Below are positions 21,731 through 58,878 of a DNA stretch of 64,000 nucleotides, one piece after another (position 1 is the stretch's first letter; each line of letters starts with the position of its first letter). The notes under the pieces are model-generated. The model saw only the letters and a list, made by a program, of their open reading frames with translations, ran no database searches and was not told where the DNA came from. Position numbers and translations under genes: made by a program. Source of the stretch: an uncultured virus (IMG/VR IMGVR_UViG_3300025108_000034) (Duplodnaviria; Heunggongvirae; Uroviricota; Caudoviricetes); IMG/VR virus record IMGVR_UViG_3300025108_000034; one strand, written 5' to 3'.

Positions 21731-21781
21731 TTGGCATACTACGTCGAACTATTCAATCAGGCGTGATGCCTGGCTTTCGAC

Positions 21782-22507
21782 ATGGCTGACGAGAACACGA
21801 CTCCCGAGACGGAAGTTAGCACTCCTCAAAACTCTAACACCAATGACGACATGATGCCTCGTTCGGAGGCTGAGAATCTTTTGAAGGCTCTCAAGGCTGA
21901 GCGTGAGTCAAGAAAACAATACGAAAAGCAGGTTAAAGAGCAAGCTGCTCAACTAGAGCGTTTCGCCGACGTAAATCCAGATGAGTGGACTTCAATGCAA
22001 GCCGAAGCTGCTAAAGGTGCTCAGTTGCAAGCTCAATTCGGTGAGGCCAAAGAGGCTATCGAATTAAAATACAGTAAACAGGCTGAGGCAGCTGCAATCG
22101 AAGCTACTGCAGCAAAAAATGCCCTTGCTGATTATCAGAAGAAGTACGCTTTGGAAAAAGTGTTTCACGAAGCAGGTGGCCGTACAGATGCAGCTGATGG
22201 CGTAAGTTTCTTTGACATGATGGCCCAGCAGATCGGTGGTAACTTCCGCCAAGAGGCTGACGGTTCGTTGACAGTCATCGATGCAGCTGGCGATCCAGTT
22301 CTTGACAAAGAGTCTGGCAAGCGTATCTCAGCAGCGGACTTCATCGGATCGTACAAAGTGCATCCTATCTATGGCACTTTTTTTAAAGGCACTAAAGGAG
22401 CTGGAGCTGGCATCGGCTATGGCGGCACAGACGCTAACGGAATGCCTTCCGAAGACCTGTCAAGCTTGTCTTCGACGGAGCTGTTCCAGCGTGCATTCGG
22501 CAGTTAA
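21782..22507 (+). CDS. Capsid scaffolding protein
   Basis: Coiled-coil, acidic, 'LLKALKAERE', Gly-rich tail; directly upstream of the major capsid gene. Confidence 0.8.
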   Translation: MADENTTPETEVSTPQNSNTNDDMMPRSEAENLLKALKAERESRKQYEKQVKEQAAQLERFADVNPDEWTSMQAEAAKGAQLQAQFGEAKEAIELKYSKQAEAAAIEATAAKNALADYQKKYALEKVFHEAGGRTDAADGVSFFDMMAQQIGGNFRQEADGSLTVIDAAGDPVLDKESGKRISAADFIGSYKVHPIYGTFFKGTKGAGAGIGYGGTDANGMPSEDLSSLSSTELFQRAFGS

Positions 22508-22532
22508 GTATTGAGGTCTTAAGTGAATATTC

Positions 22533-22560
22533 AACGGAGTCTTTTTGGCTCCGTTTTTAT
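22533..22560 (+). terminator. Rho-independent terminator
   Basis: AACGGAGT...GCTCCGTT followed by TTT. Confidence 0.7.
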
Positions 22561-22580
22561 TGATATCGGTACTCTAGTAT

Positions 22581-22665
22581 TAGCAGCCCAGAAAGGAAAC
22601 TCTGAGATGGAGTGGACTGGAAGGGTGCGATTGCCGAAGCTACTGTGACAGTATCTGAAGCGCTA
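22581..22665 (+). promoter_or_regulatory. Structured 5' leader of the major capsid gene with three GNGAY-loop hairpins
   Basis: ACTCT-GAGAT-GGAGT, GGT-GCGAT(T)-GCC, TACT-GTGAC-AGTA, enclosed by TAGC(A)GC/GCGCTA. Confidence 0.6.
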
Positions 22666-22702
22666 ACACCCAATCTTTGTTCAATCATCTTTAGGAAACA
22701 AA

Positions 22703-23584
22703 ATGGCACTTACTCTGCTTGAAGCTCAGAAACACGCCTCTACTCCACAAGAGTTGGCTGTTGTGACTGAACTGGCCGCTGGTCAGCTCATGTCCGTACT
22801 CCCCTTCCGCTCTATTGAAGGCAATGGCCTTTTCTGGAAGCGTGAAGAGAGTCTCCCTAACGTGGGATTCCGCAATTATAATGGCGCTCTTGCCGAAAGT
22901 TATGGCGAAGTCAGTCAGCAATCTGAGAGCCTAAAGCTCTTTGGTGGTGACATCAAAGTTGACCGCGCTATCGTCGAGCTTGAAGGAGCCGAAGCAAAGG
23001 CTTATCAAATTCAGTCTCGTGTTCGCGCTATGCGCATGGCCTGGGAAGGCTTGTTCATCAACGGCGACTCCAATCAGTCTCCTTCCGAATTCGACGGCCT
23101 TGCCGCTCGTCTCGGCACAGGCTCTAGTCAGTACAAGGCTGTCGGCGGTGCTTTGACTGAAGGCGTTCTTGACGAAGCCCTTGACAACGTTGACGCTCAA
23201 GGTGGCTCTAAGTACATCATTATGTCCAAGTCCATGCGTCGCAAGCTTAGCAGCTTGGCTCGTGGCAACGGCCAAATCGAGATCTCTCGTAATGAGTACG
23301 GCTATCAGCAGACCAGCTACATGGGCGTACCTGTCCTTGAGTTGGACCGCGATCATCAGAACGTCGCTATCCTCGATGGCAACATTGCCAGCCAGGACGT
23401 CTACGTCGTTTCTTTCGGCCCTGACCAGTTGACCGGTATCCAGAACGGCGCAGTAGGCGTCCGTGAGCTCGGCGAGTCATTTGATCAGCCTCAGCTCGTG
23501 ACTCGCGTTGAATGGTATTGCGGATTGGCCCTTATCAATGGTCGCGCAGCCTATCGTCTCGCAACTGTTGACGCAACTATCTGA
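22703..23584 (+). CDS. Major capsid protein (HK97 fold)
   Basis: 293 aa, 'LPFRSIEGN...FRNYN...GGDIKVDRAI...EFDGL...RVEWYCGLA'; codon usage typical of high expression; strong terminator follows. Confidence 0.9.
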   Translation: MALTLLEAQKHASTPQELAVVTELAAGQLMSVLPFRSIEGNGLFWKREESLPNVGFRNYNGALAESYGEVSQQSESLKLFGGDIKVDRAIVELEGAEAKAYQIQSRVRAMRMAWEGLFINGDSNQSPSEFDGLAARLGTGSSQYKAVGGALTEGVLDEALDNVDAQGGSKYIIMSKSMRRKLSSLARGNGQIEISRNEYGYQQTSYMGVPVLELDRDHQNVAILDGNIASQDVYVVSFGPDQLTGIQNGAVGVRELGESFDQPQLVTRVEWYCGLALINGRAAYRLATVDATI

Positions 23585-23611
23585 TTCCGATCAGGTGGCA
23601 CCCCGCGATAT

Positions 23612-23632
23612 AGCCCCTACGGGGGCTTTTTT
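23612..23632 (+). terminator. Rho-independent terminator
   Basis: AGCCCC-TACG-GGGGCT followed by TTTT. Confidence 0.8.
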
Positions 23633-23730
23633 ATTGCAAGTAGGTAACCTAATCTGTAAGTTGAGCAGCTACCGTTCCTTCGTAGCATGATTCAACATTT
23701 CTTCACCTCTAATCTCTAAGGAGTTCAACA

Positions 23731-24084
23731 ATGGCACAACGTTCTACAGGTGTATTTCCACGCGAAGGTTTTAACCTTGACAGCAGCACCGAAATCACCA
23801 CTTCTGCCGTAGCAGCTGCAACTACTCTTGCTAACGCTAAGACAATCCGCGTTATCGTTCTTGGAGCCGCTAGCATCGACGACGCTGGCACCAACAAAGT
23901 AACCGTGGACCTTGGCAATCAAGTGGTCACATTCAATCTTGCCGACCTCGACAAAAATGGTGTTGGCATCGCTCACGTTCGCGGTGCTCTTTGCGACGGC
24001 GACAACAATGTTCAGTACACTCTTGGCGGAACCGCTACAGTGGCTGGCGTCTTCTACGAGCTCGTCGACGGGCCTCGTCGCTGA
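23731..24084 (+). CDS. Putative capsid decoration/cement protein
   Basis: 117 aa after the capsid gene, with AAGGAG RBS, own late motif (23643) and a terminator at 24108-24130. Confidence 0.6.
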   Translation: MAQRSTGVFPREGFNLDSSTEITTSAVAAATTLANAKTIRVIVLGAASIDDAGTNKVTVDLGNQVVTFNLADLDKNGVGIAHVRGALCDGDNNVQYTLGGTATVAGVFYELVDGPRR

Positions 24085-24164
24085 TCCCCGTTTTAACGGA
24101 AAGACATAAAGGGCTTCGGCCCTTTTTTTTATGCTTGGAAACCTATTTGGAATCAGGGGCAATT

Positions 24165-24524
24165 ATGCATCTCAAGAAGTTACCTACTTACTTTGTTAAA
24201 GGGCAAGAACGATTGGCTGCGTATTATACCGTTCAAGCTCGTGAATTGCTTCAGGCTGGATACGTGGAAGAAGGCGAAAAGGCTGAACCCCGGAAGCCCA
24301 TTGAAAGGCAGCCAGAGATCTTGGTAGAAGTTGGCGGAACTGCCTACGACCCTATCAGCTCACAACAAGAGCCTCAAGCCGAGGAAGGGGACCTTGACGG
24401 CATGACGAAAGCCGAGCTCCTCGACTGGGCTGAAGCCGAAGGCCAAGATGTCAAGAGTACTTTGTCAAAAGCTGAGATCCTCAAGGCCTGTAAGGAAATC
24501 CAATTTAACGGTAACGTACTTTAG
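24165..24524 (+). CDS. Protein with C-terminal HeH/Rho-N-like motif
   Basis: 'LDGMTKAELLDWAEAEG..VKSTLSKAEIL'; late motif at 24137. Confidence 0.65.
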   Translation: MHLKKLPTYFVKGQERLAAYYTVQARELLQAGYVEEGEKAEPRKPIERQPEILVEVGGTAYDPISSQQEPQAEEGDLDGMTKAELLDWAEAEGQDVKSTLSKAEILKACKEIQFNGNVL

Positions 24525-24536
24525 ACCCTTAGTCTT

Positions 24537-24710
24537 ATGGAAGTAGTCTATTCATCAGGCCCTCGCTATCTAGACGGCGTCAATATCGACGCTGACGTTA
24601 ACGCGGCTCATGCCAAAGGGCAAGAGATCAAGATTTCGGACCCGGTCACTGGCCTCTCTGGCCTTGGATACGAACCTGGCCAGAAAAACAGAGACGAGAG
24701 TGAATTGTGA
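24537..24710 (+). CDS. Small hypothetical protein (57 aa, MEVVYSSGPRY...)
   Basis: Translated by hand; motif variant at 24510. Confidence 0.5.
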   Translation: MEVVYSSGPRYLDGVNIDADVNAAHAKGQEIKISDPVTGLSGLGYEPGQKNRDESEL

Positions 24711-24900
24711 ATTCTATTTCCAGCCACGAAAGGCTCACGGCTAGATTAACTCTTCTGAGTTGGGGTTCTGTATGTTTTTTCGCTGGAATGAGTACATCGA
24801 TGTTTCTTATTTGGGGATTTCACGGAAATCTTATGCATAACTCGGAGACACGAAGCAAGCAAAGTTTACAGGTAATCTATTCTCAGGGAGAGGTTTTACC

Positions 24901-25281
24901 GTGCCAGAATCGATTCTAGTAATGCTGGCAACCACTCTTGTGGGATGGGGGACATTCACTTGGAAAAGGGCGGAAGAAGCTTTAGTCGTAGCTCAACGAG
25001 CTGTTGTCTCAACCGACAGGCTTGAGGTAAAACTTGCTGAAAAATATGTAACAAAAGAAGACTTCAGATCTTCTATTAATGCCGTAATGCAAGAGTTCAC
25101 TCGGACACGAGAAGATATCAAAGATGGTTTTTCTCAGATTAGGGGAGAATACAAAGAATCATACGATCAGCTTGGCGAGTCTTTAAATCGTCTTGAAGAT
25201 AAAGTAGTTTATCATGTAGACGTACAAGCAAAAGAAGCTAGCGACCTTCGTAGAAAACTTGAGCAAAGAGGTCAAAACTAA
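24901..25281 (+). CDS. Membrane-anchored coiled-coil protein (possibly lysis-related)
   Basis: N-terminal TM segment, then 'LAEKYVTKEDF...LNRLEDKV'. Confidence 0.6.
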   Translation: MPESILVMLATTLVGWGTFTWKRAEEALVVAQRAVVSTDRLEVKLAEKYVTKEDFRSSINAVMQEFTRTREDIKDGFSQIRGEYKESYDQLGESLNRLEDKVVYHVDVQAKEASDLRRKLEQRGQN

Positions 25282-26053: not shown

Positions 26054-26346
26054 TGGCTGGCAACAAAAAAGACGCTAGGCTTGTCAAGAACAACCTATCT
26101 AGCTTTAACAAGCCAAAAAGAACCCCAGGACATCCAACGAAAAGTCACGTCGTTCTTGCGAAAGAAGGCAACCGGACCAAACTAATTCGTTTTGGAGAAC
26201 AGGGAGCCAAGACAGCAGGCAAGCCTAGGGCTGGTGAGTCTGCGAAAAACAAGGCCAAGCGGAAAAGCTTTAAAGCTCGCCATGCCAAGAACATTGCCAA
26301 AGGCAAGATGTCAGCGGCTTACTGGGCTAACAGGGAAAAATGGTGA
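26053..26346 (+). CDS. Highly basic conserved phage protein
   Basis: 'NKPKRTPGHPTKSHVVLAKEG...IRFG...SFKARH...SAAYWA...KW'. Confidence 0.7.
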   Translation: MAGNKKDARLVKNNLSSFNKPKRTPGHPTKSHVVLAKEGNRTKLIRFGEQGAKTAGKPRAGESAKNKAKRKSFKARHAKNIAKGKMSAAYWANREKW

Positions 26347-26353
26347 GCTCTTA

Positions 26354-26548
26354 TTAGTTCCCACTATATGGCCAAGAAAGCTCAATGTCTCCTTGCCATA
26401 TATCAGGATCTATAGGGGTTTTTGCTACGTATTCACGAAAAAGCTGCTTCATTTCTGACAAAGAAATACCCGTCTCCTCTGCTATAGTTCTGACGTTCGA
26501 TTGACCTCGGAACAAAACAATCAAAGCCTCGTCAATCGTCGTCTTCAT
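26354..26548 (-). CDS. Small HTH-like protein
   Basis: 'NVRTIAEETGISLSEMKQLF'. Confidence 0.55.
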   Translation of the reverse strand: MKTTIDEALIVLFRGQSNVRTIAEETGISLSEMKQLFREYVAKTPIDPDIWQGDIELSWPYSGN

Positions 26549-28273: not shown

Positions 28274-29662
28274 ATGCCAGTCCCTTCACCCAGGAATGCA
28301 GTAAAACCGGCAAGGGGCGATTACAGTGACTTGTCGACCAATATTTCGTCTTTAAAAGATGGAGAGATATGCTACGCAATTGATCAAGATCAGCTATATA
28401 TAAATGAAAGCGGAACACTTGTTCCGGCTGGTGTTACTGTGTCTGGCGTTCAGACTGTTACTGGTAACAAAACTTTTTCAGGTGACGTAGACCTGACTGG
28501 AGTTTTTAAAGTAGATTCTACAGCTGTTACTGCTACCGCTATTGAGTTAAACTACACTGGTGACCTTGGAACTTTCACTGGTTCTACAATTGCTGACAAT
28601 TCTAATGTAAAAGTTGCTTTACAAGCGATAGAAACAGCGGTCGAAAGTGGCGGTGGCGGAGGCGGTGGATCTTTGACTGCCGACGATGCCGGAACAGCTA
28701 ACTATTCGTCCGGGACTATCAACATCTCTGGGGATACTGGTATTAGCACTACGGCCAGTGGTAATACTTTAACTATTGACTTAGACGATACTGCGGTTAC
28801 TGCGGCGTCTTACGGAGCAGCTGGGACTGTTGGAACTTTTACTGTTGACGAACAGGGTCGACTGACAAGTGCTTCTGACGTTTCAATTAGCATTGCTCAC
28901 AGTCAGGTCTCTGACTTTGACTCCGGGGTCCAGGCTAACAGATTGGATCAAATGGCCGTGCCTACCGCCTCGGTAAACATGAATAGCCAAAAGATAACTG
29001 GCTTAGCTGATCCGGTATCCGATCAAGATGCGGCGACAAAATCTTATGCAGATGCTCTTGTTTCAGGGCTTGATATTAAAAAATCAACAAGAGTTGCCAC
29101 TACAGCTAATATCACATTAAGCAATACTCAAACTGTCGACAATGTATCTCTAGTTGCTGGAAACAGGGTGCTGGTCAAAGATCAGACAGATGCATCTGAG
29201 AATGGTATTTATGACGTAGTCTCAGGAGGAGGCTGGACTCGTTCTTCCGATGCAGACAATACCCCTTCAGGAGAAGTAACGTCCGGCATGTTTACGTTTG
29301 TAGAGGATGGTGATACAAGTGCTGGCATTGGCTATGTATTGGTCACATCGGATCCTATAACTCTTGGAACAACCGATCTTACTTTCACTCAGTTTTCTGA
29401 GATTGGTGCTGTAACAGCAGGCAATGGTCTTACCAAGACGGGTCAAACTCTGGATGTGGGTACTGCTGACAGTGGCCGAATTGTAGTCAATGCCGACAAT
29501 ATAGACTTAGCGGTTAGTGGAGTTACTGCTGGAACTTACAACGGTTTCACCGTTGATACCTACGGTCGAGCTACGGCATTCTCTCAGCCCACTACACTGG
29601 CTGGATATGGCATTACGGACGCTCTGAGCTCAGACTCTACGATAGACGGCGGAACTTATTGA
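28274..29662 (+). CDS. Tail fibre protein (chain B, part 2)
   Basis: 'DAATKSYAD...RVATTANITLS...RVLVKDQTDASENGIY', 'PTTLAGYGITDA'. Confidence 0.85.
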   Translation: MPVPSPRNAVKPARGDYSDLSTNISSLKDGEICYAIDQDQLYINESGTLVPAGVTVSGVQTVTGNKTFSGDVDLTGVFKVDSTAVTATAIELNYTGDLGTFTGSTIADNSNVKVALQAIETAVESGGGGGGGSLTADDAGTANYSSGTINISGDTGISTTASGNTLTIDLDDTAVTAASYGAAGTVGTFTVDEQGRLTSASDVSISIAHSQVSDFDSGVQANRLDQMAVPTASVNMNSQKITGLADPVSDQDAATKSYADALVSGLDIKKSTRVATTANITLSNTQTVDNVSLVAGNRVLVKDQTDASENGIYDVVSGGGWTRSSDADNTPSGEVTSGMFTFVEDGDTSAGIGYVLVTSDPITLGTTDLTFTQFSEIGAVTAGNGLTKTGQTLDVGTADSGRIVVNADNIDLAVSGVTAGTYNGFTVDTYGRATAFSQPTTLAGYGITDALSSDSTIDGGTY

Positions 29663-29710
29663 TTAGGAAGACTAGCGGGATCGCCTAGATAGGCACGACA
29701 GGATCGCCAC

Positions 29711-39298: not shown

Positions 39299-39420
39299 TC
39301 TTCAAATTGAAGATGATTTCGATCTTCACCATGAAGACTGAACATCTTCACCATGAAGAACATGGGTCTTCAAATTGAAGACCCCTCTATATATAAAGAC
39401 TCTAATACAAATCAAATACA
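39299..39420. repeat. Iteron cluster (4x TCTTCA-N3-TGAAGA) plus AT-rich tract; putative replication origin
   Basis: Starts at 39299, 39323, 39345, 39367, followed by TATATATAAAGACTCTAATACAA; directly upstream of the initiator gene. Confidence 0.75.
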
Positions 39421-39728
39421 TGGGGACCTTGAAAAGACCAAAAAACTGGAGGGACGAGGTGGGCCCTGTCTACGCTCAGGAGGGCAAGGCCATAGGACGG
39501 CTCATCATGCATGATCGAGAGCAAGAGGCTTACCTGTGGTCTTTGTTGGGTGGAACAGGGTTGTGGCCTCGCTGGTACTTGTATGCATTTGCTACGCTGT
39601 ATCGCGAGGAAAACATTCGAGAGTACAACGCTCAAAAAGCAATCAAGCATTCCAGGCGCAAGCGCAAGAAGGAAAGTCGCCTAAAATGCGAAGAGAAACA
39701 GCAAGAGGCCTTTGAAAAAGCTTCTTAG
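39420..39728 (+). CDS. Hypothetical protein
   Basis: Probable start MGTLKRP. Confidence 0.45.
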   Translation: MGTLKRPKNWRDEVGPVYAQEGKAIGRLIMHDREQEAYLWSLLGGTGLWPRWYLYAFATLYREENIREYNAQKAIKHSRRKRKKESRLKCEEKQQEAFEKAS

Positions 39729-40579: not shown

Positions 40580-41371
40580 TTGGTCTCAACTTTGACAGAT
40601 TCAGTTACGACGTGGCTTGACGCTGCAGGAAAAAGAGCAATTAGCACAGAACTAACCAGTGAGCTTCTGATGTCCCTGTCTAAGACAGAAGTTGATTCCA
40701 AAAGATACGTTAAAATTTTAAATCGAATTTGCGAAGGAAATCTTTTGTTAGCTTACAAAGCCACCAAGTCATATTCTGACAAGCGACAGCTGCGCTGGGG
40801 AACAGAGCTTAGTGAAGATCTTTTGCAGGTTGGGTATTTTGGTCTTCGTGTTGCAACAAAGTATTACGACTTTAAGCGTGGGTGCAGGTTTTCAACTTGC
40901 GCAGTCCCTTGGATTCGTCAAAGATTAGGGCGTCATTTAATGCAAAAAGAAGCATTTATCTATGTTCCAGAGAATCTTGTGATGGAAGTCTACTATCGGC
41001 GAAACAATGATGGCAAGCCTAGCGGAAGGAAAGGCGTATCAAAGTCTGCCGCCATCTACAACGCTGCGGAAGCAGCCATGTCGTCTTATGCGTCGCTAGA
41101 CGTTAAGTATGGAGAGAAAGGGTGTACGTCCCTGTCTGATCTCATAGAAACTCCTGATAGCTCTAATAGACAAGAAAGAATGGATGAAAAACTTTTAAAA
41201 GCTAAGGAGATAATGACAAAAGCTGGTCTCGAACCAAAGGTTCAAGATTTTTTGATTGAGTATGCGAACAGAGGGAATCTTGAAGTTTCAGCAGCTAAAA
41301 CTGGAGTCTCAACAAGCAGAGCGAGTAAAATTTATCGTCAGGCCCTTGATCGCTGCCACAGCGTGATATAA
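40580..41371 (+). CDS. Sigma-70 family sigma factor (RpoD/RpoS-like region 2)
   Basis: 'NLLLA...EDLLQVGYFGL....YDFKRGCRFSTCAVPWIRQ...IYVP'. Confidence 0.85.
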   Translation: MVSTLTDSVTTWLDAAGKRAISTELTSELLMSLSKTEVDSKRYVKILNRICEGNLLLAYKATKSYSDKRQLRWGTELSEDLLQVGYFGLRVATKYYDFKRGCRFSTCAVPWIRQRLGRHLMQKEAFIYVPENLVMEVYYRRNNDGKPSGRKGVSKSAAIYNAAEAAMSSYASLDVKYGEKGCTSLSDLIETPDSSNRQERMDEKLLKAKEIMTKAGLEPKVQDFLIEYANRGNLEVSAAKTGVSTSRASKIYRQALDRCHSVI

Positions 41372-45338: not shown

Positions 45339-46418
45339 ATGATCGCTTCATCTCAATTACAACAGCAGAAAACAGGCTGGCAACAGTTCTGTGAGTGGGT
45401 CACCTCCACCAACAACCGTCTTTATGTTGGCTGGTTCGGTGTGTTGATGATCCCCACACTGCTTGCCGCAACCACCTGTTTCATCGTCGCTTTCATCGCC
45501 GCACCTCCGGTTGACATCGACGGCATCCGCGAACCTGTTGCAGGAGCTTTGCTCTATGGAAACAACATCATCTCAGGTGCGGTCGTACCTAGCAGTAATG
45601 CAATCGGTCTCCATTTCTACCCAATCTGGGAAGCTGCCTCACTCGACGAGTGGCTCTACAACGGCGGTCCTTTTCAGTTGGTTGTGTTTCACTTCCTGAT
45701 CGGCATCTACGCCTATATGGGACGTGAGTGGGAACTTTCCTACCGCTTGGGCATGCGCCCCTGGATCTGTGTTGCATACAGCGCCCCTGTTGCTGCAGCT
45801 TCTGCAGTGTTTCTCGTCTATCCTTTCGGTCAGGGTTCATTCTCTGACGCAATGCCCCTCGGAATCAGTGGAACCTTCAACTACATGCTTGTCTTTCAGG
45901 CAGAACATAATATCCTTATGCACCCGTTTCATATGCTGGGTGTCGCCGGTATCTTTGGTGGTAGTCTTTTTTCTGCTATGCACGGAAGTTTGGTTACAAG
46001 TTCACTCGTTCGCGAGACAACCGAAACAGTATCTCAAAATTATGGCTACAAGTTTGGGCAAGAAGAAGAAACGTATAACATTGTGGCTGCTCATGGCTAC
46101 TTTGGTCGCCTTATCTTTCAGTACGCTTCCTTTAATAACAGCCGTAGCCTGCACTTCTTTCTCGCTGCCTGGCCTGTGGTTGGTATCTGGTTTGCTGCTT
46201 TAGGAGTAAGCACAATGGCGTTTAACCTTAATGGATTTAACTTCAATCAATCAATCGTCGAATCACAAGGACATGTTGTTAGCACCTGGGCAGACATTCT
46301 TAACCGAGCAGGACTCGGAATGGAAGTCATGCACGAAAGAAACGCGCACAACTTCCCGCTGGATCTTGCAGCAGCTAGCACCACATCTGTGGCCTTAACT
46401 GCGCCTTTGATCGGATGA
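45339..46418 (+). CDS. psbA: Photosystem II D1 protein
   Basis: Full-length 359 aa with '[15 protein letters not shown]...[13 protein letters not shown]'. Confidence 0.99.
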
Positions 46419-46633
46419 CTATTATCAAAGAAGATGGTGGAAGGTTAAACACTTACGCTGTCGAACCTATCATGTATTATGACCAAGCAACTAAGGACGA
46501 ACTTATGAGCAACAACTATGAAAGCCACAACACCAAAGCAGAACGCCTTAATGGTCGACTAGCTATGCTGGGATTTATCGCAGCCATTGGAGCTTATGCC
46601 CTCACTGGCCAAATTATTCCAGGAGTTTTCTAA
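46415..46633 (+). CDS. hli: High-light inducible protein
   Basis: '[31 protein letters not shown]'. Confidence 0.95.
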
Positions 46634-46800
46634 GGTGCGTAGCCAATAACTCTGAATTCCCTACAAGAACTTTGGAGTTATTAACTACCGATTTACTCAT
46701 CAGACGCCTCCTGATTGCTTCCCAGTCAGGAGGTATAAACAAGTTAAGTTACATTAGGTTTCTCATGGCTCGGCATACTACAGCGACGAGATGTCAGGCT

Positions 46801-47418: not shown

Positions 47419-48939
47419 ATGGCAGTCAAGAAAGGTAACGACTACCTCGAAAGAGCGTCCTTAGGTCAAGGCCTCGTAAAAGAGATCAAACACAAGAAAG
47501 CTGAGAAAGGACCGGGAAAAAATGTCGTCTTGTGGAAATTTATTCGCAAAGTATTTCCTCAGTATAAATTTTACAAATTTCATGCTAAAGTCATCGAACA
47601 ACTGCAGAGAGTCATTGACGGAGAATGCAATCGACTTATACTTCAGGTCCCGCCGAGACATGGAAAGAGCCTCCTTGCATCGCAATTACTTCCTGCTGCT
47701 TATCTTCTTGCTCATCCCGACCGTCATGTGGGTATCAGCTCTTACTCCGCAGAGCTTGCCGAAGGGTTCTCCCGTAAGGCAAGGGGCTATTTCAAGGAAG
47801 GCGGTGGTCTGCTAAGCGAGGAAAGCAAAGCTGTCAATGCTTGGGGAACAGAAGGAGGAGGCGGTTTGTGGGCGGCAGGTGTTGGCGGTGCCGTAACTGG
47901 CCGATCTGGACATCTTCTCATCGTTGACGATCCTGTAAAAAACAGAGAAGATGCTGAGTCTTCTAGGATAATGGAAAAACTTAATGACTGGTACACTTCA
48001 ACGCTCTACACAAGACTGGAGCCTCACGTTGGCGCGATCGTCATTATTCAGACGAGATGGTCCGAGAATGACATGATTGGCCAATTATTGGACAATGAAA
48101 AGAATGTTTCCGAGAAAGGCCGAGAAGGATGGACGATCGTTGATCTTCCAGCATTATATGAAGACAAAGATGATCGACCAAAGCTGCCTGAACACTGTCC
48201 TGTCATAGAAGATTGGCGATCGGAGATAGGAGAAGCCTTGTGTCCCCAGCGATATGATACAGACGCATTAGAGAGAATCAGAGAAGCTATTGGATCAAGA
48301 GATTTCGCTTCTCTGTATCAGCAAAGGCCAGCCCCAGAAGGCGGAAACCTGTTCGCTCCTGAATGGTGGCAATATTACAGCTGGGATAGTAATCTGCCCG
48401 ATTTTCAAAGAGTGATGCTTTCAGTTGACTGTACTTTTACGAACGCTAAAAACAGTGACTATGTCGTAGGCACAGTCGTTGGGCAAGCTGGAAATTCTTT
48501 TTATGTTCTGGACTTAGTAAGGGAGAAGCTTGACGTAGTGGGAACGATGGCAATGATTGCCAGGATGTACAAAAGGCATGCTCTGTCTGGTTGTGTTATT
48601 GAGCTCGCTGCGTCGGGTTATGCTGTTTATCAAATGATGCAAAAACGAATACCAGGCCTGATTGGCTTTAAGCCTGAGAAAAGCAAAGAGGCAAGGGCTT
48701 CTGGAATCGTGCCTTTAGTGGAAGCAGGTAATGTTTATTTACCTGTCAGCGCAACTTGGCTGGATGCTTTTTTAAATGAGTTTGCTTTGTTTCCAGCATC
48801 TAAGAACGACGACATGGTCGATAGCTTGACGATGGCTTTGAATTATTGTGCTCAGCGATCAGCCCCTCAGGCAACTTCGGTGACCTGGGGTAGAGGAGAT
48901 CGCGTATTACCAAACGCTTCAAAATATAACGCATGGTAA
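47419..48939 (+). CDS. Terminase large subunit
   Basis: Walker A 'PPRHGKS', 'LIVDDPVK', 'QTRW', nuclease 'SVD...SDY...NDDMVDS'. Confidence 0.97.
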   Translation: MAVKKGNDYLERASLGQGLVKEIKHKKAEKGPGKNVVLWKFIRKVFPQYKFYKFHAKVIEQLQRVIDGECNRLILQVPPRHGKSLLASQLLPAAYLLAHPDRHVGISSYSAELAEGFSRKARGYFKEGGGLLSEESKAVNAWGTEGGGGLWAAGVGGAVTGRSGHLLIVDDPVKNREDAESSRIMEKLNDWYTSTLYTRLEPHVGAIVIIQTRWSENDMIGQLLDNEKNVSEKGREGWTIVDLPALYEDKDDRPKLPEHCPVIEDWRSEIGEALCPQRYDTDALERIREAIGSRDFASLYQQRPAPEGGNLFAPEWWQYYSWDSNLPDFQRVMLSVDCTFTNAKNSDYVVGTVVGQAGNSFYVLDLVREKLDVVGTMAMIARMYKRHALSGCVIELAASGYAVYQMMQKRIPGLIGFKPEKSKEARASGIVPLVEAGNVYLPVSATWLDAFLNEFALFPASKNDDMVDSLTMALNYCAQRSAPQATSVTWGRGDRVLPNASKYNAW

Positions 48940-48961: not shown

Positions 48962-49693
48962 ATGGCACGTCGCCCTGCTAAGTTTACAATGAATAACGAG
49001 CAGCGTAAGCTTGCTGCAGACAATCTAAACCTAGCAAGGAGAGAAGCTTGGAGACTTCAAAGAACTACTGAGATCGATTATCACACCTTGGAATCAGTAG
49101 CATTCGAGGGGTTATGCAAAGCGGCTTATCGTTATGACGCCTCAAGGCCTCATCCTATTACGGGAAAGAGCATGAAGTTCTCCAGTCTGGCGACACCAAC
49201 AATTCGCGGGGAGTTACTTCATTGGATAAGAGATAGGACTTACGCACTTAGACTGTCGCATAAAATGAGAGAGCGATGGGTCAAGGGGCGAAAGCTCCTT
49301 TACAGAGGAGCAAGTGATATCGAGGTGGCTGAAGAGCTTGGGATCGATCGTCAGGAGTGGCAAGAAATCCGCAAGGTTTGTTCTGGTCCTCCCCTTGAGC
49401 TAAAGGAGCAGGCGAAGCCCTCAGAGCCTTTGACGGCTAGTGAAATCGATTTCGGTGCCATGTATCTAGAGTTAGCGTCGTCAGCCATGGAAGAGCTAGA
49501 GGATCAATCTGAGGTCCTTGATCGATTGGAGATATATCTAAGCGGAACAGGATCTCGTCTCCCTACAGAAGCTATCGACAGGTTGCTTTCCATCGCAGGC
49601 TGCAGAGAGACTGATTGGTCCGAAGCAGGGATCGAACTGATTGATGGCTGTCAGAAACTGGCCAACAACCGCTATCAGCCAAATCTTTTCTGA
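48962..49693 (+). CDS. SigF/SigB-like alternative sigma factor
   Basis: 'AFEGLCKAAYRYD...FSSLATPTIRGELLHWIRDR...LRLS' matches group-3 sigma region 2. Confidence 0.85.
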   Translation: MARRPAKFTMNNEQRKLAADNLNLARREAWRLQRTTEIDYHTLESVAFEGLCKAAYRYDASRPHPITGKSMKFSSLATPTIRGELLHWIRDRTYALRLSHKMRERWVKGRKLLYRGASDIEVAEELGIDRQEWQEIRKVCSGPPLELKEQAKPSEPLTASEIDFGAMYLELASSAMEELEDQSEVLDRLEIYLSGTGSRLPTEAIDRLLSIAGCRETDWSEAGIELIDGCQKLANNRYQPNLF

Positions 49694-54920: not shown

Positions 54921-55376
54921 ATGAGATCCTCCCATCCCACCGGGCTCCACTTCCATCGCCGCAACCCAGACCCCCGCAGGGGGAGCCATGGCGACTGCGT
55001 GGTCCGCGCCATCACCCTGGCCACTGGCGACCCCTACGACTACGTGTTCCAGCAGCTCCACCGGCTGATGGAGGGCTTCAACCGCTCAGGCACGCCAAAC
55101 GGCGGAGTCCCGAACAGCATCTCGAGGCATTGGATGCGCCGCCAGGGCTGGGAGTGGTATCCCCTTCCGGCGGGAACCATCTTCAAGGCTGCGAACATGC
55201 CGGAGCTGTGCATCGCCTCCCAAGCGACTCATCTTGTGCTGGTCGCTAACGGTTCCATCTGGGACACCTGGGACAGCCGGGGCAAGCGCCAGAAAAAACT
55301 CGAGGGTTACCTTGCGCCCCTTGGTGCCGGAGCGACGATCGCCGAGTGGATTAAAACAGAATGTTGCATCGCTTGA
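54921..55376 (+). CDS. Conserved phage protein (GDCVVRAI..A motif)
   Basis: 'NP...GDCVVRAITLATG..Y...HL......DTWDS' suggests a Cys/His/Asp peptidase-like fold. Confidence 0.65.
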   Translation: MRSSHPTGLHFHRRNPDPRRGSHGDCVVRAITLATGDPYDYVFQQLHRLMEGFNRSGTPNGGVPNSISRHWMRRQGWEWYPLPAGTIFKAANMPELCIASQATHLVLVANGSIWDTWDSRGKRQKKLEGYLAPLGAGATIAEWIKTECCIA

Positions 55377-55446
55377 CAGCCTCGGGTAGCTGATTTAGAA
55401 CAGGGACATCAGCAACCCAGACAGACGACCACCCGCACCCAACACC

Positions 55447-55683
55447 ATGACTACCACCACCTACAGCCCTCAGGCGATCAACCTCGCAAACTTTGAAATA
55501 GGAGTTCAGTTTCACCTTCCTACAGATGACCTTCATTGGATCCCTAACGGATTCGAGACAGTCACTTTAGTAGTCGACAGGCAAGACCTGGAAGACGACA
55601 AGTACGACACCTTGAGCTGTGCCGCCGAAGCGTGGTGCGACTCAAAAGGATACTCCTTCTTTCAATTGATCGAAGAGCCATAG
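55447..55683 (+). CDS. Hypothetical protein
   Basis: TTGACA at about 55373 upstream; terminator at about 55710-55738. Confidence 0.55.
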   Translation: MTTTTYSPQAINLANFEIGVQFHLPTDDLHWIPNGFETVTLVVDRQDLEDDKYDTLSCAAEAWCDSKGYSFFQLIEEP

Positions 55684-55785
55684 CCAACGAACGAATAACA
55701 ACCTGCTGAGAAGCCCTCAACCCATCGGGGGCTTTTTAGTGTATGATCTCCTGGTAGACTACCTTCACGCAAAAAAAAACATCAC

Positions 55786-58086
55786 ATGTCAGAATTCCGG
55801 TCAGAAGCTCCATCAGCAGAAACAGTCTTCTATCGCACTTATAGTCGCAGGAAAGCAGACGGCACTAGGGAAAACTTCCAAGAGGCTATGACCCGCACGG
55901 TCAAAGACCTCGCTCGAATTGGCAACTTCACCGAGCAAGAGACCGCGCACGTTACAGAGCAAGCTTTGTCTCAGCACGCTTTTCCTTCTGGTCGTGCTTT
56001 CTGGGTGGCCGGTACTGACTGGAGTAAAAAGGCTGAAAATTTTAGCGGTTACTATAACTGTACCTCCACTCATATTGAAGACCTTGAGGCTTTTGGCTTG
56101 CTCGTCGACTTGGCCATGCAAGGGTCTGGGACTGGAGCTGTTTTAGAGGAAAACGTTGTTTCAAAATTGCCTCCAATTCTTCGAACATTGCATTTAGAAA
56201 GTGTTTCAGAGATAGGAACCGGACTTGGACTAGAAGAAACCAAGATTATTTGGGATAACAAGAACGTTCATATTCGCGTAGGAGATTCCCGAAAAGGTTG
56301 GAAGGATGCGTATATGGCTCTTCTTTCTCAGGCGACTAGAAACTTAGCCGACAAAGATTGTTACGTTTATATAGACCTAGGACAAGTCAGGCCTAGTGGC
56401 AGGAGACTAAAAGGGTTCGGAGGAACCGCCAATCCGATTAAGCTCCCTAGTTTATTCGGTAAGGTCATCGATGTCTTGAATGGAGCCACTGGCCGTCAAC
56501 TGACGACCATTGAAGCCTGCCTTCTAATTGATGAGGCAGCTACTTGTATTGTGGCTGGCAACATTCGTCGTTCTGCTGGCATGCGTCAGTTTTCGGAAGG
56601 TGATTCGGAAGCAGCTACTGCAAAGCTAGGACTTTACTCTCAGGACGAATCAGGTAATTGGCGGGTGGATCCGAAGAAAGAAGCTCTTCGCATGGCTAAC
56701 CACACCAGATGCTATCATCGCAAACCCTCTTACGAGGAGGTCGAGGCTGCGGTTCGCATGCAATTCGAGTCTGGAGAAGGCGCTATTCAGTACGTTCCTG
56801 AGGCTATCGCTAGAGCTAATGCTGATCTCCTGAATACAAACACTCGCAAGAACACTTTCCTGAGGGCTTATGCGCTTGAGGGAGGTCGTCGCAGCTATGC
56901 TGAGAACGTGCTCAGGACCTACTCCGCTATCGACGGTCTTAAGTTGACTGATCGCGAGTTTTCACATCGGATGGATCGCTATGGTCTTAATCCCTGTGGA
57001 GAGATTATCGGTCGCGATTTCCACTGCAATTTGGCTGAAGTTCACCTCAACACTATCGATCCTAACGACCATGAAGCACAAGACGCCGCTTTTTATGCCG
57101 CTGGACTTCAGGTCGCTGCGTTATTACAGCATGAGTTCGTCCATGAAAGGTATCGGTACAGTCGGGAGATCGATCCAATCGTTGGTGTTTCTTTCACTGG
57201 CTTTTTTGATTTCATGGTGCATTCTTGCGGCTACGACTGGCTGAAGTGGATGATGGAAGGCCGCGAAGGCAAGAGAGCAACGGACATGTATGAGTCTACT
57301 GAGCGTCGCTTCCTAAAACGCTGGCGCAAGGCAGCACATAAGGGAGTTTGCGATTATTGTGAGAAGCACGATATCCGACTGCCTAACCGAATCACCACTG
57401 TCCAGCCTGCAGGAACCAAGAGCTTGCTTACAGGTGCTAGTAGTGGCTGGCATCCTCCCAAGGCTCAAAGGTTTATTCGTCGCATCACTTTGGGTGTTAA
57501 AGACCCGCTTGTTCCGGCTTTGATCGAAAAAGGATTTAGTATTATTCCAGCACAATCGGCCCGAGACGAAGAAGGAAATCTCCTTGACGATATTGCCGAT
57601 CCTCGTGTGCAAGAGGTATTGGTAGAAATACCTACCGAAGTAAGCTGGGCGAATGTCCCAGGGTGTGACTCATTCGATTTGGCTCAATTGCCAGTAAAGG
57701 CTCAATACGGTCTCTATATGCAAGTACAGCGTCACTACACGGATCACAACACTTCTGCCACTATCGAGCTAAGGGAGAACGAAATTGAGTCCTTAGCTAA
57801 GCTCATTCATGACGACGTCAAAAACGACAATGGCTACATATCTGCCGCTCTTTTAGCAAGGTTCGACGTTGATGGAGGGACGTTCCCTCGGCTCCCCTTC
57901 GAACCAATCGATAAAGAGACTTATCAACGACTCGTCGCCATTCAACAAGCAACAGAGTCTGAAGAGCCTTTCCTTGATATACTGAATAAGTATGACTCAG
58001 AGGAATGGTCAATCGAATCAGTAGCTGGTTGCACGAACGCAAGCTGTATAGCCAAAGCAGAAGCGGATGAACGGCAAGGCAAATGA
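55786..58086 (+). CDS. nrdJ: Class II (B12-dependent, monomeric) ribonucleotide reductase
   Basis: 'VFYRTYSR', 'PSGR', 'YYNC', 'VAGNIRRSA', 'NPCGEI', 'TVQPAGT', C-terminal 'GCTNASC'. Confidence 0.95.
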   Translation: MSEFRSEAPSAETVFYRTYSRRKADGTRENFQEAMTRTVKDLARIGNFTEQETAHVTEQALSQHAFPSGRAFWVAGTDWSKKAENFSGYYNCTSTHIEDLEAFGLLVDLAMQGSGTGAVLEENVVSKLPPILRTLHLESVSEIGTGLGLEETKIIWDNKNVHIRVGDSRKGWKDAYMALLSQATRNLADKDCYVYIDLGQVRPSGRRLKGFGGTANPIKLPSLFGKVIDVLNGATGRQLTTIEACLLIDEAATCIVAGNIRRSAGMRQFSEGDSEAATAKLGLYSQDESGNWRVDPKKEALRMANHTRCYHRKPSYEEVEAAVRMQFESGEGAIQYVPEAIARANADLLNTNTRKNTFLRAYALEGGRRSYAENVLRTYSAIDGLKLTDREFSHRMDRYGLNPCGEIIGRDFHCNLAEVHLNTIDPNDHEAQDAAFYAAGLQVAALLQHEFVHERYRYSREIDPIVGVSFTGFFDFMVHSCGYDWLKWMMEGREGKRATDMYESTERRFLKRWRKAAHKGVCDYCEKHDIRLPNRITTVQPAGTKSLLTGASSGWHPPKAQRFIRRITLGVKDPLVPALIEKGFSIIPAQSARDEEGNLLDDIADPRVQEVLVEIPTEVSWANVPGCDSFDLAQLPVKAQYGLYMQVQRHYTDHNTSATIELRENEIESLAKLIHDDVKNDNGYISAALLARFDVDGGTFPRLPFEPIDKETYQRLVAIQQATESEEPFLDILNKYDSEEWSIESVAGCTNASCIAKAEADERQGK

Positions 58087-58286
58087 GTTGGAACAACGCT
58101 CATGTCAACAAGGTCACGTATCCAGATCATCCCGATCTGGAGCAGGCTTTGGGTAATTTCAGGAACCAATACATTTGGTATCAACAGCAGATCAAGTATC
58201 GCAAAACGAGAGGGGTCGATTCGGCTCCAGTCGAAAGCGCTTGGTCTTCTTTTCTTAAGCTTCGCAAAAAGTACTTCTCCGTTTAA
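58083..58286 (+). CDS. Hypothetical protein
   Basis: ATGA overlap with nrdJ. Confidence 0.5.
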   Translation: MSWNNAHVNKVTYPDHPDLEQALGNFRNQYIWYQQQIKYRKTRGVDSAPVESAWSSFLKLRKKYFSV

Positions 58287-58295
58287 GGTAAAACC

Positions 58296-58796
58296 GTGGC
58301 AACCATTGTTGACTATCAGATCAGAAGACTTTGTCGCACACATGGCATCGTTGAACCTTTTGATCCAGAAATGGTAAATCCAGCTTCAATAGATGTAGTC
58401 CTTGGCCCTATTGTCAAGGTTGAAAACGACAGCGGAGAGTTTACTCCATTCAACATCGAAAAAGAAACTTTCTACATGCCCCCTGGATCATTTGTTCTCG
58501 CAAGTACTGCTGAATGGATAAGAGTTCCTAATCACATGGAATGTATCTTTCATCTCAAGTCATCTCGTGCCAGAGAAGGTTATGAGCACGCTTTCGCTGG
58601 CTACTGTGACGCAGGGTTCCAAGGAAATGTCACACTCGAACTCAGCAATTTGCGACGTTTTAAAGAGCTCCCATTGAGAGCGGGGATGAGAATGGGACAG
58701 CTTCGGTTTATGAAGCTAGATAGTACTCCCTTACGCCCTTATTCTCTCACTGGCCGTTACCAGAACGACGAGGGAGTGCAGGAGAGTAAGGGTTAA
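58296..58796 (+). CDS. dcd: dCTP deaminase
   Basis: 'NPASID...FVLAST.E...KSSRAREG...DAGFQGNVTLEL...YQ'. Confidence 0.92.
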   Translation: MATIVDYQIRRLCRTHGIVEPFDPEMVNPASIDVVLGPIVKVENDSGEFTPFNIEKETFYMPPGSFVLASTAEWIRVPNHMECIFHLKSSRAREGYEHAFAGYCDAGFQGNVTLELSNLRRFKELPLRAGMRMGQLRFMKLDSTPLRPYSLTGRYQNDEGVQESKG

Positions 58797-58811
58797 GGAA
58801 TCCTAGTAAGG

Positions 58812-58878
58812 CTAGGTAGCGAGACGCGCCTGGGTTAAACATCACTTATGGCGCGACGCCTACCATCGCAGCGATTGC
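58812..58878 (+). promoter_or_regulatory. Portal 5' leader with three GNGAY-loop hairpins
   Basis: CTAGGT(A)GC-GAGAC-GCGCCTGG, GGC-GCGAC-GCC, GCA-GCGAT-TGC abutting the ATG. Confidence 0.6.

What the first reader, a model, noticed from the sequence alone, without database searches (positions are those of the whole stretch)
21757..58878. Shared GNGAY-pentaloop hairpins mark the leaders of all dispersed head/packaging genes: a candidate RNA-level head-assembly regulon
Seen: short hairpins with a G-[ACT]-G-A-[CT] loop sit at the 5' ends of four genes. Scaffold: TCAGGC-GTGAT-GCCTGG at 21757-21773, plus CC-GAGAC-GG at about 21804 inside the ORF. Major capsid: loops GAGAT 22604, GCGAT 22627, GTGAC 22645. 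Small terminase: AGC.GAC-GAGAT-GTC.GCT ending just before ATG 46801. Portal: GAGAC 58821, GCGAC 58853, GCGAT 58871, the last abutting the ATG. Stem sequences differ while the loop is conserved, which is what a protein-recognised RNA operator looks like. I did not see these hairpins in tail or fibre leaders, apart from a GAGAA variant before the major tail gene. Known: phage P22 scaffold protein autoregulates its own translation. Inference: one RNA-binding factor, such as free scaffold or a small basic protein, sets stoichiometry across head genes up to 37 kb apart.
Basis: partly seen in the sequence, partly recalled or inferred. Interest (0 to 1): 0.85.

Follow-up and report, generated by a model that had tools for sequence, protein, structure and literature searches.

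The report
Shared RNA hairpins before head genes
Small RNA hairpins with the same five-letter tip sit in front of the scaffold, capsid, terminase and portal genes of this cyanophage, of its relatives and of some very distant phages, so they look like a real, uncatalogued control signal for head-protein production whose reader is still unknown.

Summary
The window is an S-CBS2-like cyanosiphovirus. Hairpins with a G-N-G-A-(U/C) loop lie in the leaders of scaffold, major capsid, small terminase and portal. In 496 nt of leader there are 6 with a stem of 3 bp or more; 5000 shuffles gave mean 0.2, and the other ~4.2 kb of intergenic DNA has none. In 26-45 distinct relatives per leader the loop G1, G3 and A4 are invariant or nearly so, while the stems covary and often use G-U pairs, so this is an RNA element on the + strand. 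One listed loop (22627) is not a hairpin, and the window's first portal hairpin is weak. Each leader starts at a shared -10-like box that also precedes about 17 other late genes at a fixed 26-30 nt. The motif recurs before scaffold or capsid genes of Pseudomonas, Bordetella, Xanthomonas and Gordonia phages. In phage YuA it lies inside a published 5'UTR RNA candidate. No Rfam family matches. Earlier notes of this scan reported the same motif on other DNA.

The parts
21733..21741 (+). -10-like late promoter box GGCATACTA before the scaffold leader
   Evidence: and for the box family. It is conserved in 42 scaffold leaders (G1, G2, A4 and T8 invariant).
21757..21773 (+). Scaffold 5'UTR hairpin: 6-bp stem, loop GUGAU at 21763-21767, ending 8 nt before ATG 21782
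   Evidence: 96.2% of cells paired, 5 of 6 pairs changed on both sides, loop G, G and A invariant in 42 sequences.
21800..21816 (+). Hairpin inside the scaffold ORF (codons 7-12), loop GAGAC at 21806-21810, with a conserved C.A mismatch at the third pair
   Evidence: 75.6% paired, 4 of 6 pairs changed on both sides. The loop-closing pair covaries at synonymous third positions (C-G 28, U-A 6, A-U 1, unpaired 7).
22533..22555 (+). Intrinsic terminator after the scaffold gene; it separates the scaffold and capsid transcription units
   Evidence: A GC stem plus T run is conserved by position in relatives.
22568..22576 (+). -10-like box GGTACTCTA before the capsid leader
   Evidence: G1, G2, A4 and T8 invariant in 45 sequences.
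22599..22613 (+). Capsid leader hairpin 1, loop GAGAU at 22604-22608
   Evidence: 92.4% paired, 5 of 5 pairs changed on both sides. Loop G, G and A invariant in 45 sequences.
22623..22671 (+). Capsid leader long three-tier stem-loop: base GGGUG/CACCC, variable middle helix, apical hairpin 22641-22653 with loop GUGAC at 22645-22649; a U-rich stretch follows
   Evidence: 45 of 45 relatives fold to this shape, 40 of 45 with the full base helix; base helix 97.3% paired with one-sided changes only; apical hairpin 92.4% paired, 5 of 5 pairs changed on both sides. One search gives the MFE of the window copy.
46772..46780 (+). -10-like box GGCATACTA, 29 nt before the terS start at ATG 46801
46785..46795 (+). 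terS leader hairpin: 3-bp stem, loop GAGAU at 46788-46792, 5 nt before ATG 46801; probably at the very 5' end of the mRNA
   Evidence: 72 of 78 stem cells paired, against 46 of 78 at most when slid. Stem types include GAC/GUC, AGA/UCU, AGG/CCU, GGA/UCC and UGC/GCA. Loop is GAGAU in 19, GUGAU in 4 and other in 3 of 26.
58797..58805 (+). -10-like box GGAATCCTA before the portal leader
58819..58827 (+). Portal leader hairpin 1, loop GAGAC at 58821-58825; only 2 bp in this window
   Evidence: the GC..GC core is present in 33 of 33 and the third pair in 26 of 33, with several pair types. The rows were picked by best stem, so this count is biased.
58850..58860 (+). Portal leader hairpin 2, loop GCGAC at 58853-58857
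   Evidence: 86.4% paired, 4 of 4 pairs changed on both sides. Many relatives have G-N-G-A-A here.
58868..58878 (+). Portal leader hairpin 3, loop GCGAU at 58871-58875, ending 1 nt before ATG 58880
   Evidence: the three inner pairs are kept in 28-29 of 30, and the loop-closing pair is A-U in 13 and U-A in 12.
8087..8154 (+). Tail gene (8155) leader: box at 8087-8095, hairpin 8102-8118 with loop GAGAA, and a second hairpin near 8133-8145; a looser relative of the motif
   Evidence: a conserved two-hairpin leader in 27 distinct relatives. The loop is G[AU]GAA in 15 of 27 and differs in 12.

Best explanation
The hairpins are cis-acting RNA elements in the 5' leaders of late head-gene messages: scaffold, capsid, terS (with terL translationally coupled behind it) and portal. 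Each message starts at its own -10-type late promoter box. Most late genes carry the bare box 26-30 nt before the start codon. These four carry one to three inserted hairpins whose loop G-N-G-A-(U/C, sometimes A) is fixed while the stem is free to change.

My best reading is that the loop is a recognition site for one trans-acting factor. That factor acts after transcription, on translation initiation or on mRNA survival, so that the head genes respond together.

Shown:
- The element is real.
- It works at RNA level and is strand-specific.
- It is conserved and covarying.
- It is shared by the four leaders and by distant phages.

Inferred:
- A factor reads the loop.
- Hairpins abutting the start codon (portal 1 nt, terS 5 nt, scaffold 8 nt upstream plus one at codons 7-12) gate ribosome access.
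- The distal capsid hairpins (49 nt upstream, with a normal Shine-Dalgarno sequence) act more on RNA stability or processing.

The identity of the factor is unknown.
For: In-window enrichment.

Loop invariance. G1, G3 and A4 are invariant in 45 capsid leaders and 42 scaffold leaders. In 33 portal leaders (hairpins 2 and 3) and 26 terS leaders one or two of these loop letters are invariant and the rest nearly so.

Covariation:
- Capsid: 94.1% of cells paired, score 0.625 against 0.262 in shuffles, 0 of 500 shuffles as high, slid controls 42-56%.
- Scaffold UTR hairpin: 96.2% paired.
- Portal hairpins 2 and 3: 79.4% paired, 7 of 8 pairs changed on both sides, 0 of 500.
- terS: 72 of 78 cells paired.

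Many G-U pairs would be C.A on the other strand (for example U-G 13 and G-U 10), so the fold is in + strand RNA.

The spacing of the two capsid loops is 37-42 nt in 37 of 41 rows despite divergent sequence between them.

The position next to start codons is conserved.

The same loop on different stems occurs in scaffold or capsid leaders of M6, FP1, Xoo-sp2, PaMx74, Meyran and Ewald. In Meyran, 3 of the genome's 6 hairpins of 5 bp or more lie in one 207-nt leader.

In YuA the capsid 5'UTR holding three such hairpins is transcribed from its own start site and accumulates as a 124-nt RNA (passages of PMC10914365; coordinates checked).
Against: - No candidate reader was found. No RNA-binding family appears in Pfam or PHROGs.
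- Only capsid, portal and a nucleotide kinase are detectably shared with M6 and Meyran.
- Scaffold family does not track the motif.
- The basic zinc-ribbon DUF6171 protein next to the scaffold gene is absent from M6, Meyran, FP1 and Xoo-sp2.
- A factor shared by phages of cyanobacteria, proteobacteria and actinobacteria is hard to name.
- The capsid hairpins are too far from the ribosome site for simple occlusion.
- The single-sequence fold energy of the capsid leader is unremarkable (z = -0.74).
- No transcript data exist for this phage.
Confidence: 0.5

Rival explanations
1. Factor-independent structural elements. The hairpins are very stable caps, with a loop that may fold like a GNRA tetraloop plus one extra base. 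They protect the 5' end from 5'-dependent RNases and frame an unstructured window around start codons that lack a Shine-Dalgarno sequence. No dedicated reader is needed.
For: - The terS hairpin would sit at the very 5' end of its message, given the box-to-hairpin distance.
- The scaffold start codon lies between two hairpins.
- In YuA the structured 5'UTR persists as an abundant fragment.
- The motif crosses host phyla with no shared candidate protein.
Against: A purely structural cap should tolerate ordinary stable tetraloops and either purine at position 3. Instead G1, G3 and A4 are invariant in 45 and 42 sequences, and the fifth base is kept. The other roughly 17 late genes with the same box have no hairpin.
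Confidence: 0.2
2. Transcription-level control. The hairpins are sites for an antitermination or attenuation system. One form would resemble lambda N/boxB, where a peptide reads a GNRA-like pentaloop in nascent RNA. The other would be an attenuator in the capsid leader, where the long stem-loop plus the U-rich tail ends transcription unless an alternative pairing or a bound factor prevents it.
For: - The capsid leader's base helix GGGUG/CACCC is 97.3% kept and is followed by a U-rich stretch.
- RNAalifold instead pairs the same GGGU with an invariant upstream ACCC, a mutually exclusive fold.
- Real terminators bound the scaffold and capsid units.
- The YuA paper files its 5'UTR RNAs under premature termination.
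- A pentaloop hairpin just downstream of a promoter recalls nut sites; this resemblance is recalled, not tested.
Against: - The terminator scan did not call the capsid-leader stem. The U tract is weak and set 3-4 nt from the stem.
- The scaffold, terS and portal hairpins have no U tract and no terminator before the gene.
- No conserved boxA-like sequence lies beside the hairpins in the alignments.
- No N-like protein was recognised.
- Neither alternative helix shows compensatory change.
Confidence: 0.15
3. The leaders are sources of trans-acting small RNAs. The structured 5'UTR is released by cleavage or termination at the start codon and acts elsewhere, for example as a sponge, a regulator or an assembly cofactor.
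For: The YuA candidate RNA 39396-39519 is exactly the capsid 5'UTR. Its 5' end lies 7 nt after TATACT and its 3' end is the base before the ATG.
Against: The terS and portal leaders are only about 20-80 nt and abut the start codon. One hairpin lies inside the scaffold ORF. No target is evident. The YuA authors call it only a candidate.
Confidence: 0.1
4. The pattern is chance, or a DNA-level palindrome bound by a DNA-binding regulator.
For: Stems of 2-3 bp are individually common: 3651 pentaloop 'hairpins' lie on the + strand. The window's first portal hairpin has 2 bp.
Against: - Shuffle and pattern controls.
- Covariation with a fixed asymmetric loop.
- Frequent G-U pairs that fail on the other strand.
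- A DNA dimer site would conserve the arms, not the centre.
Confidence: 0.03

Closest known systems
YuA 5'UTR-derived ncRNA candidate 39396-39519 before the major head gene gp56 (Putzeys et al. 2024, PMC10914365; passages read)
   Same: It sits in the same place, the 5'UTR of a homologous capsid gene (28% identity to M6). It has its own promoter after a terminator. It holds three hairpins with GUGAU, GCGAC and GUGAU loops.
   Different: The paper describes a transcript, not a motif. It names no loop consensus and makes no link to the scaffold, portal or terminase leaders. The architecture differs from the window's leader, and I did not test sequence homology of the leaders.
Lambda and P22 N protein with the boxB nut-site hairpin (features recalled, no call)
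   Same: A short stem with a purine-rich pentaloop, read in phage RNA through its loop while the stem matters little. G-N-G-A plus one base could adopt a GNRA-like fold.
   Different: The loop sequence differs. No boxA-like neighbour is present and no N-like protein was recognised. The sites lie in late head-gene leaders, some abutting start codons, not after early promoters.
P22 scaffolding protein autoregulation (recalled; my search listed nothing on it by title)
   Same: A head-assembly protein whose synthesis is set post-transcriptionally. The scaffold message here carries two of the hairpins around its start codon.
   Different: To my knowledge no RNA operator is defined for P22. Here scaffold family does not track the motif, and four or more genes share it.
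T4 RegA translational repressor regulon, and the MS2 coat-protein operator hairpin (recalled)
   Same: One phage protein represses several messages at their start sites (RegA). A structural protein binds a hairpin at a start codon through loop bases (MS2).
   Different: No RegA homologue is present. RegA sites are not hairpins. The MS2 operator has a different loop and a bulged base.

Membership tests
Any Rfam family | Match to a curated covariance model | tested here: not met
   0 matches at gathering score in the whole window. (21700-22720, E up to 10): only two chance-level snoRNA hits inside the scaffold ORF.
boxB/N-type nut site | Short hairpin with a pentaloop read through loop bases | tested here: met
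   3-6 bp stems with a 5-nt loop whose positions 1, 3 and 4 are fixed.
boxB/N-type nut site | Loop sequence of the known boxB sites, and a GNRA-like fold | not testable with these tools
   The loop here is G-N-G-A-(U/C/A). Known boxB loops are recalled as different. The fold needs NMR or crystallography.
boxB/N-type nut site | Conserved boxA element next to the hairpin | tested here: not met
   No conserved block beside the hairpins other than the promoter box (alignments).
boxB/N-type nut site | Phage-encoded N-like arginine-rich antiterminator | tested here: inconclusive
   None was named by PHROGs or Pfam. Such peptides are too short and divergent for these profiles.
Intrinsic terminator | GC-rich stem directly followed by a T run | tested here: not met
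   One search finds terminators at 22533-22555 and 23612-23627, not at the GNGAY hairpins. The capsid-leader long stem has only a weak, offset U-rich tail.
Scaffold-protein autoregulatory operator (P22-type) | Scaffold protein binds its own message | not testable with these tools
   This needs EMSA or pull-down. Indirect test: scaffold PHROG family does not correlate with presence of the hairpins.
GNGAY head-leader hairpin (motif defined here and in scan notes e1-6236495 and e1-6288376) | Loop G-N-G-A-(not G) on a covarying stem, in the 5' leader of a head gene | tested here: met
   for this clade; for distant phages.

The most novel reading that the evidence does not exclude
G-N-G-A-(U/C) hairpins are an ancient, cross-phylum RNA 'tag' of head-assembly messages in tailed phages that share this capsid and scaffold module, from cyanobacteria to Pseudomonas to Gordonia. 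A single reader recognises them: either a head-module protein or a universal host machine. This would be a post-transcriptional head-assembly regulon of a kind not yet described for double-stranded DNA phages.
Probability: 0.35. Interest if true: 0.85.

Novelty: new variant of a known kind. Interest (0 to 1): 0.72.

Why it matters
Phage head assembly needs fixed ratios of scaffold, capsid, portal and terminase. Outside a few classic cases, how the ratios are set is unknown. This element is loop-defined and covariation-supported, and it is shared by four separate transcription units 37 kb apart.

It also occurs in phages of three bacterial phyla. That gives a concrete and easily mutated handle: three invariant loop bases. 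With it one can test post-transcriptional co-regulation of head genes and fish for the unknown reader.

The element also gives a function-linked explanation for a published but unexplained 5'UTR RNA in Pseudomonas phage YuA. It adds a candidate family to the RNA catalogues. It exposes the late-promoter box of S-CBS2-type cyanophages, which helps to fix gene starts.

Tried and rejected
- **RNA evidence.** The look-up of sequencing runs listed no RNA holder. No whole genome is held for the window.
- **Outer helix in the scaffold leader.** GTCGAA/TTCGAC around the scaffold hairpin is only 42.4% paired in relatives, so I rejected it.
- **Middle capsid loop at 22627 as a hairpin.** Rejected.
- **Upstream ORF from the AUG formed by the loop plus closing G in capsid hairpin 1.** Rejected, because many relatives have C at loop position 5 and so no AUG.
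- **In-ORF hairpin at 12077 (5 bp, GGGAC).** Not kept in S-CBS2, so I treat it as chance.
- **Loop pairing with the 3' end of 16S rRNA.** I considered this from memory only. Position 2 varies freely and position 5 is U or C, which does not fit one fixed partner. It was not tested by a call.
- **CsrA-type GGA loops.** Position 2 is mostly A, U or C, so I rejected this.
- **Scaffold family as a predictor of the motif.** No correlation.
- **DUF6171 protein as a shared reader.** Found in S-CBS2 only, 1 of 5 records.
- **Gene content shared with M6 and Meyran.** Of 101 window ORFs, only capsid, portal and a nucleotide kinase hit at E of 1e-3 or below.
- **Single-sequence folding of the capsid leader.** Uninformative (z = -0.74).
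- **Literature.** Searches listed nothing on this motif by title or abstract.
- **Not done.** I built no covariance model, so leader homology between the cyanophages and YuA is untested.

Full report
**What the window is.**
PHROG and Pfam scans name the following genes:
- tail tape measure, 8831-11647
- scaffold, 21782-22507
- major capsid, 22703-23584
- endolysin
- psbA, 45339-46418
- small terminase, ORF running to 47415
- large terminase, 47419-48939
- two sigma-like proteins, 40580-41371 and 48962-49693
- ribonucleotide reductase
- portal, 58880-60367

DNA similarity puts the window next to Synechococcus siphoviruses S-CBS2 and S-CRES1-3 at about 70% identity. S-CBS2 has the same gene order. 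The head genes really are dispersed over 37 kb.

**The observation.**
The quoted sequences are at the quoted places. On the + strand there are 482 GNGAY. Of these, 28 have a flanking stem of 3 bp or more with G-U allowed, and six of the 28 lie in the four leaders.

I built an intergenic map of 73 stretches totalling 4724 nt. For it I moved the terS start to ATG 46801 and dropped a 50-codon antisense ORF over the capsid leader.

Pentaloop 'hairpins' of 3 bp are very common: 3651 on the strand, 276 of them intergenic. Stems alone therefore mean little. In the 496 nt of head leaders, 6 of 21 such hairpins carry GNGAY. In all other intergenic DNA, 0 of 255 do.

To control for choosing the motif after the fact, I scored all 7680 loop patterns of equal degeneracy on those 21 loops. 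GNGA[CT] is the unique best at 6. Every pattern with 3-4 hits overlaps it, and unrelated patterns reach 2 at most. In 5000 dinucleotide shuffles of the leaders the mean was 0.20, the maximum 3, and none reached 6.

**Conservation.**
I fetched relatives from IMG/VR with the capsid, portal and large-terminase proteins: 80, 54 and 57 loci. I located the gene starts by tblastn and aligned the distinct leaders.

- *Capsid leader, 45 sequences (alignment A1).* The loop G, G and A of both hairpins are invariant columns. RNAalifold finds both hairpins, with compensatory change in 10 of 16 pairs. With hairpin 1, hairpin 3 and the GGGUG/CACCC helix written in, 94.1% of cells pair. The covariation score is 0.625 against 0.262 in shuffles (0 of 500 as high), and slid controls give 42-56%. 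Both hairpins have 5 of 5 pairs changed on both sides.
- *Scaffold leader, 42 sequences (A2).* The UTR hairpin is 96.2% paired, with 5 of 6 pairs changed on both sides. The hairpin inside the ORF is 75.6% paired. It has a conserved C.A mismatch, and its loop-closing pair covaries at synonymous third positions. An outer helix that I proposed fails at 42.4%.
- *Portal hairpins 2 and 3, 33 sequences (A3).* 79.4% of cells pair, 7 of 8 pairs change on both sides, and 0 of 500 shuffles are as high.
- *Portal hairpin 1.* A GC..GC core is present in 33 of 33 and a varying third pair in 26 of 33. I picked the best stem in each row, which biases this count. The window's own copy has only 2 bp.
- *terS, 26 sequences (A4).* MAFFT misplaced the 5' arm, so I counted from the loop. 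72 of 78 stem cells pair, against 46 of 78 at most when slid. There are at least five stem types. The loop is GAGAU in 19, GUGAU in 4 and other in 3.

G-U pairs are frequent, for example U-G 13 and G-U 10 at single pairs. On the other strand these would be C.A, so the fold is in + strand RNA.

It is the 5' strand of a long stem.

**Anatomy.**
Each leader begins with a box GG[ACT]ANN[CA]TA. Of the 37 boxes on the + strand, 17 stand 26-30 nt before the start codon of an ORF of 50 codons or more. Random positions gave mean 2.1 and maximum 7 in 1000 trials. None of the 15 boxes on the - strand is listed at that distance.

The box reads as a -10 element with the conserved A and T of sigma-70-type promoters. 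This is my reading, not a tool result. In YuA the mapped start site lies 7 nt after a similar TATACT.

Intrinsic terminators follow the scaffold and capsid genes, so these are separate transcription units. Most late genes therefore have leaders of about 14 nt. The head genes have longer leaders, measured from box start to ATG: scaffold 49 nt, capsid 135 nt, portal 83 nt. In these the hairpins are inserted. terS keeps the standard 29 nt and fits a 3-bp hairpin into it, probably at the very 5' end of the RNA.

Distance from the last hairpin to the start codon:

| Gene | Distance |
|---|---|
| portal | 1 nt |
| terS | 5 nt |
| scaffold | 8 nt, with a second hairpin at codons 7-12 |
| capsid | 49 nt, with a normal AGGA before the ATG |

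In the capsid leader the two loops are 37-42 nt apart in 37 of 41 rows. In the other four rows my script took a further downstream hit as the last one.

The second capsid hairpin caps a three-tier stem-loop at 22623-22671. All 45 relatives fold this shape, 40 with the full base helix, and the middle helix differs between clades. The base helix shows only one-sided changes. RNAalifold instead pairs GGGU with an invariant upstream ACCC, and a U-rich stretch follows the stem. This looks like an attenuator, but neither alternative has compensatory support and the terminator scan does not call it. I leave it open.

**Other genes.**
The tail gene at 8155 has a conserved two-hairpin leader. Its first loop is G[AU]GAA in 15 of 27 distinct relatives and something else in 12. 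G-N-G-A-A is also common in portal hairpin 2 of relatives, so this is a looser member of the motif.

The head-decoration-like gene at 28274 and the fibre genes have the bare box. A 5-bp GGGAC hairpin inside ORF 12041 is not kept in S-CBS2.

**Beyond the clade.**
I tested this myself. The window's capsid protein finds 263 phage records, and I read scaffold and capsid leaders in 14 of them.

- *Two or more GNGAY hairpins of 3 bp or more, 6 of 14:* Pseudomonas M6, Bordetella FP1, Xanthomonas Xoo-sp2, Pseudomonas PaMx74, and Gordonia Meyran and Ewald. The stems differ between genera.
- *One hairpin, 3 of 14:* Nesbitt, MD18, Lacusarx.
- *None, 5 of 14:* phiCbK, Unity, SSU5, Cp1R7A-A1, RHph_X66.

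In Meyran, three of the genome's six hairpins of 5 bp or more lie in one 207-nt scaffold leader. The last one holds GGAGG in its 3' arm, 4 nt before the ATG.

In YuA the published ncRNA candidate 39396-39519 (PMC10914365, passages only) is exactly the capsid 5'UTR. It runs from a start site 7 nt after TATACT to the base before the ATG, and it contains the three hairpins.

**Who reads the loop?**
- No RNA-binding family was found.
- Of 101 window ORFs, only capsid, portal and a nucleotide kinase hit M6 or Meyran.
- phrog_206 scaffolds occur both with and without hairpins, and the actinophage scaffolds belong to other families.
- A basic zinc-ribbon-like DUF6171 protein (21197-21553, pI 9.2) sits just upstream of the scaffold gene. 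It is found only in S-CBS2 among five records.

It could be a fast-evolving phage protein, a head protein, or a universal host machine.

**Mechanism and rivals.**
An invariant asymmetric loop on free stems argues for recognition of the loop. Its position at start codons in three of the four genes argues for action on initiation or decay. I put 0.5 on a shared trans-acting reader that works after transcription.

| Rival | Weight | Main point against |
|---|---|---|
| Factor-free stabiliser or insulator hairpins | 0.2 | Loop invariance, and the bare-box genes |
| Antitermination or attenuation | 0.15 | Plausible only for the capsid leader |
| Leader-derived small RNAs as in YuA | 0.1 | Short leaders abutting start codons; no target evident |
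| Chance or DNA-level site | 0.03 | Contradicted |

**Known systems.**
No Rfam family matches. The element works like lambda/P22 boxB or the MS2 operator, which are loop-read hairpins, and like T4 RegA, where one repressor controls many messages. All of these comparisons are recalled. It fails the membership features that I could test, which were a boxA-like neighbour and a recognisable N or RegA homologue.

The nearest published object is the YuA 5'UTR RNA, which was described as a transcript without a motif. My literature searches (listings only) showed nothing on this motif.

**Verdict.**
The motif is uncatalogued. Earlier notes of this scan had already reported it on other DNA (e1-6236495, e1-6288376).

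Noticed in passing
window + strand, e.g. 2804, 4848, 5907, 8803, 12012, 14717, 16306, 18099, 18414, 19605, 21169, 24137, 24871, 26997, 28245: A box GG[ACT]ANN[CA]TA stands 26-30 nt before the start codon of 17 ORFs (17 of 37 boxes; random positions gave mean 2.1). It is probably the late promoter of S-CBS2-type phages. It has no -35 element and may be read by one of the two phage sigma-like proteins.
   Followed up: partly
window 21185/21197, 23991/24165, 46672/46801, 7578/7635: The box spacing suggests that the true starts are the later ATGs (21197, 24165, 46801, 7635), not the longest-ORF TTG, GTG or ATG starts.
   Followed up: partly
L193 (S-CBS2) 26329-26401, record 66329-66401: The annotated S-CBS2 portal start (66329) lies 72 nt upstream of where homology to the window's portal begins (66401). 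The annotated CDS therefore swallows the leader hairpins at 66371 and 66389, so it is probably too long.
   Followed up: partly
window 22586-22589, 22623-22627, 22667-22680: An invariant ACCC upstream and an invariant CACCC downstream can each pair with the same GGGU(G), and a U-rich stretch follows. This is an attenuator-like pair of alternative folds in the capsid leader, without compensatory support.
   Followed up: partly
window 21197-21553: A basic (pI 9.2) protein with CxxC...CxxC motifs matches DUF6171 just below the cut-off. It lies directly upstream of the scaffold unit and is annotated 'RNA polymerase-like' in S-CBS2. It is absent from M6, Meyran, FP1 and Xoo-sp2.
   Followed up: partly
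window 29666-29710: The 45-nt leader of the 1412-aa fibre gene holds a direct repeat of GGATCGCC (twice) instead of a GNGAY hairpin.
   Followed up: no
window 45339-46633: psbA is followed by a small ORF with a weak chlorophyll a/b-binding (hli-like) match, immediately upstream of the terS promoter box. The photosynthesis genes are thus wedged between replication and packaging genes.
   Followed up: no
L232 (phiCbK) 1532-1710: The phiCbK capsid leader has no GNGAY hairpin. Instead it carries the same long hairpin (about 9 bp, tetraloop) twice, at both ends of the leader.
   Followed up: no
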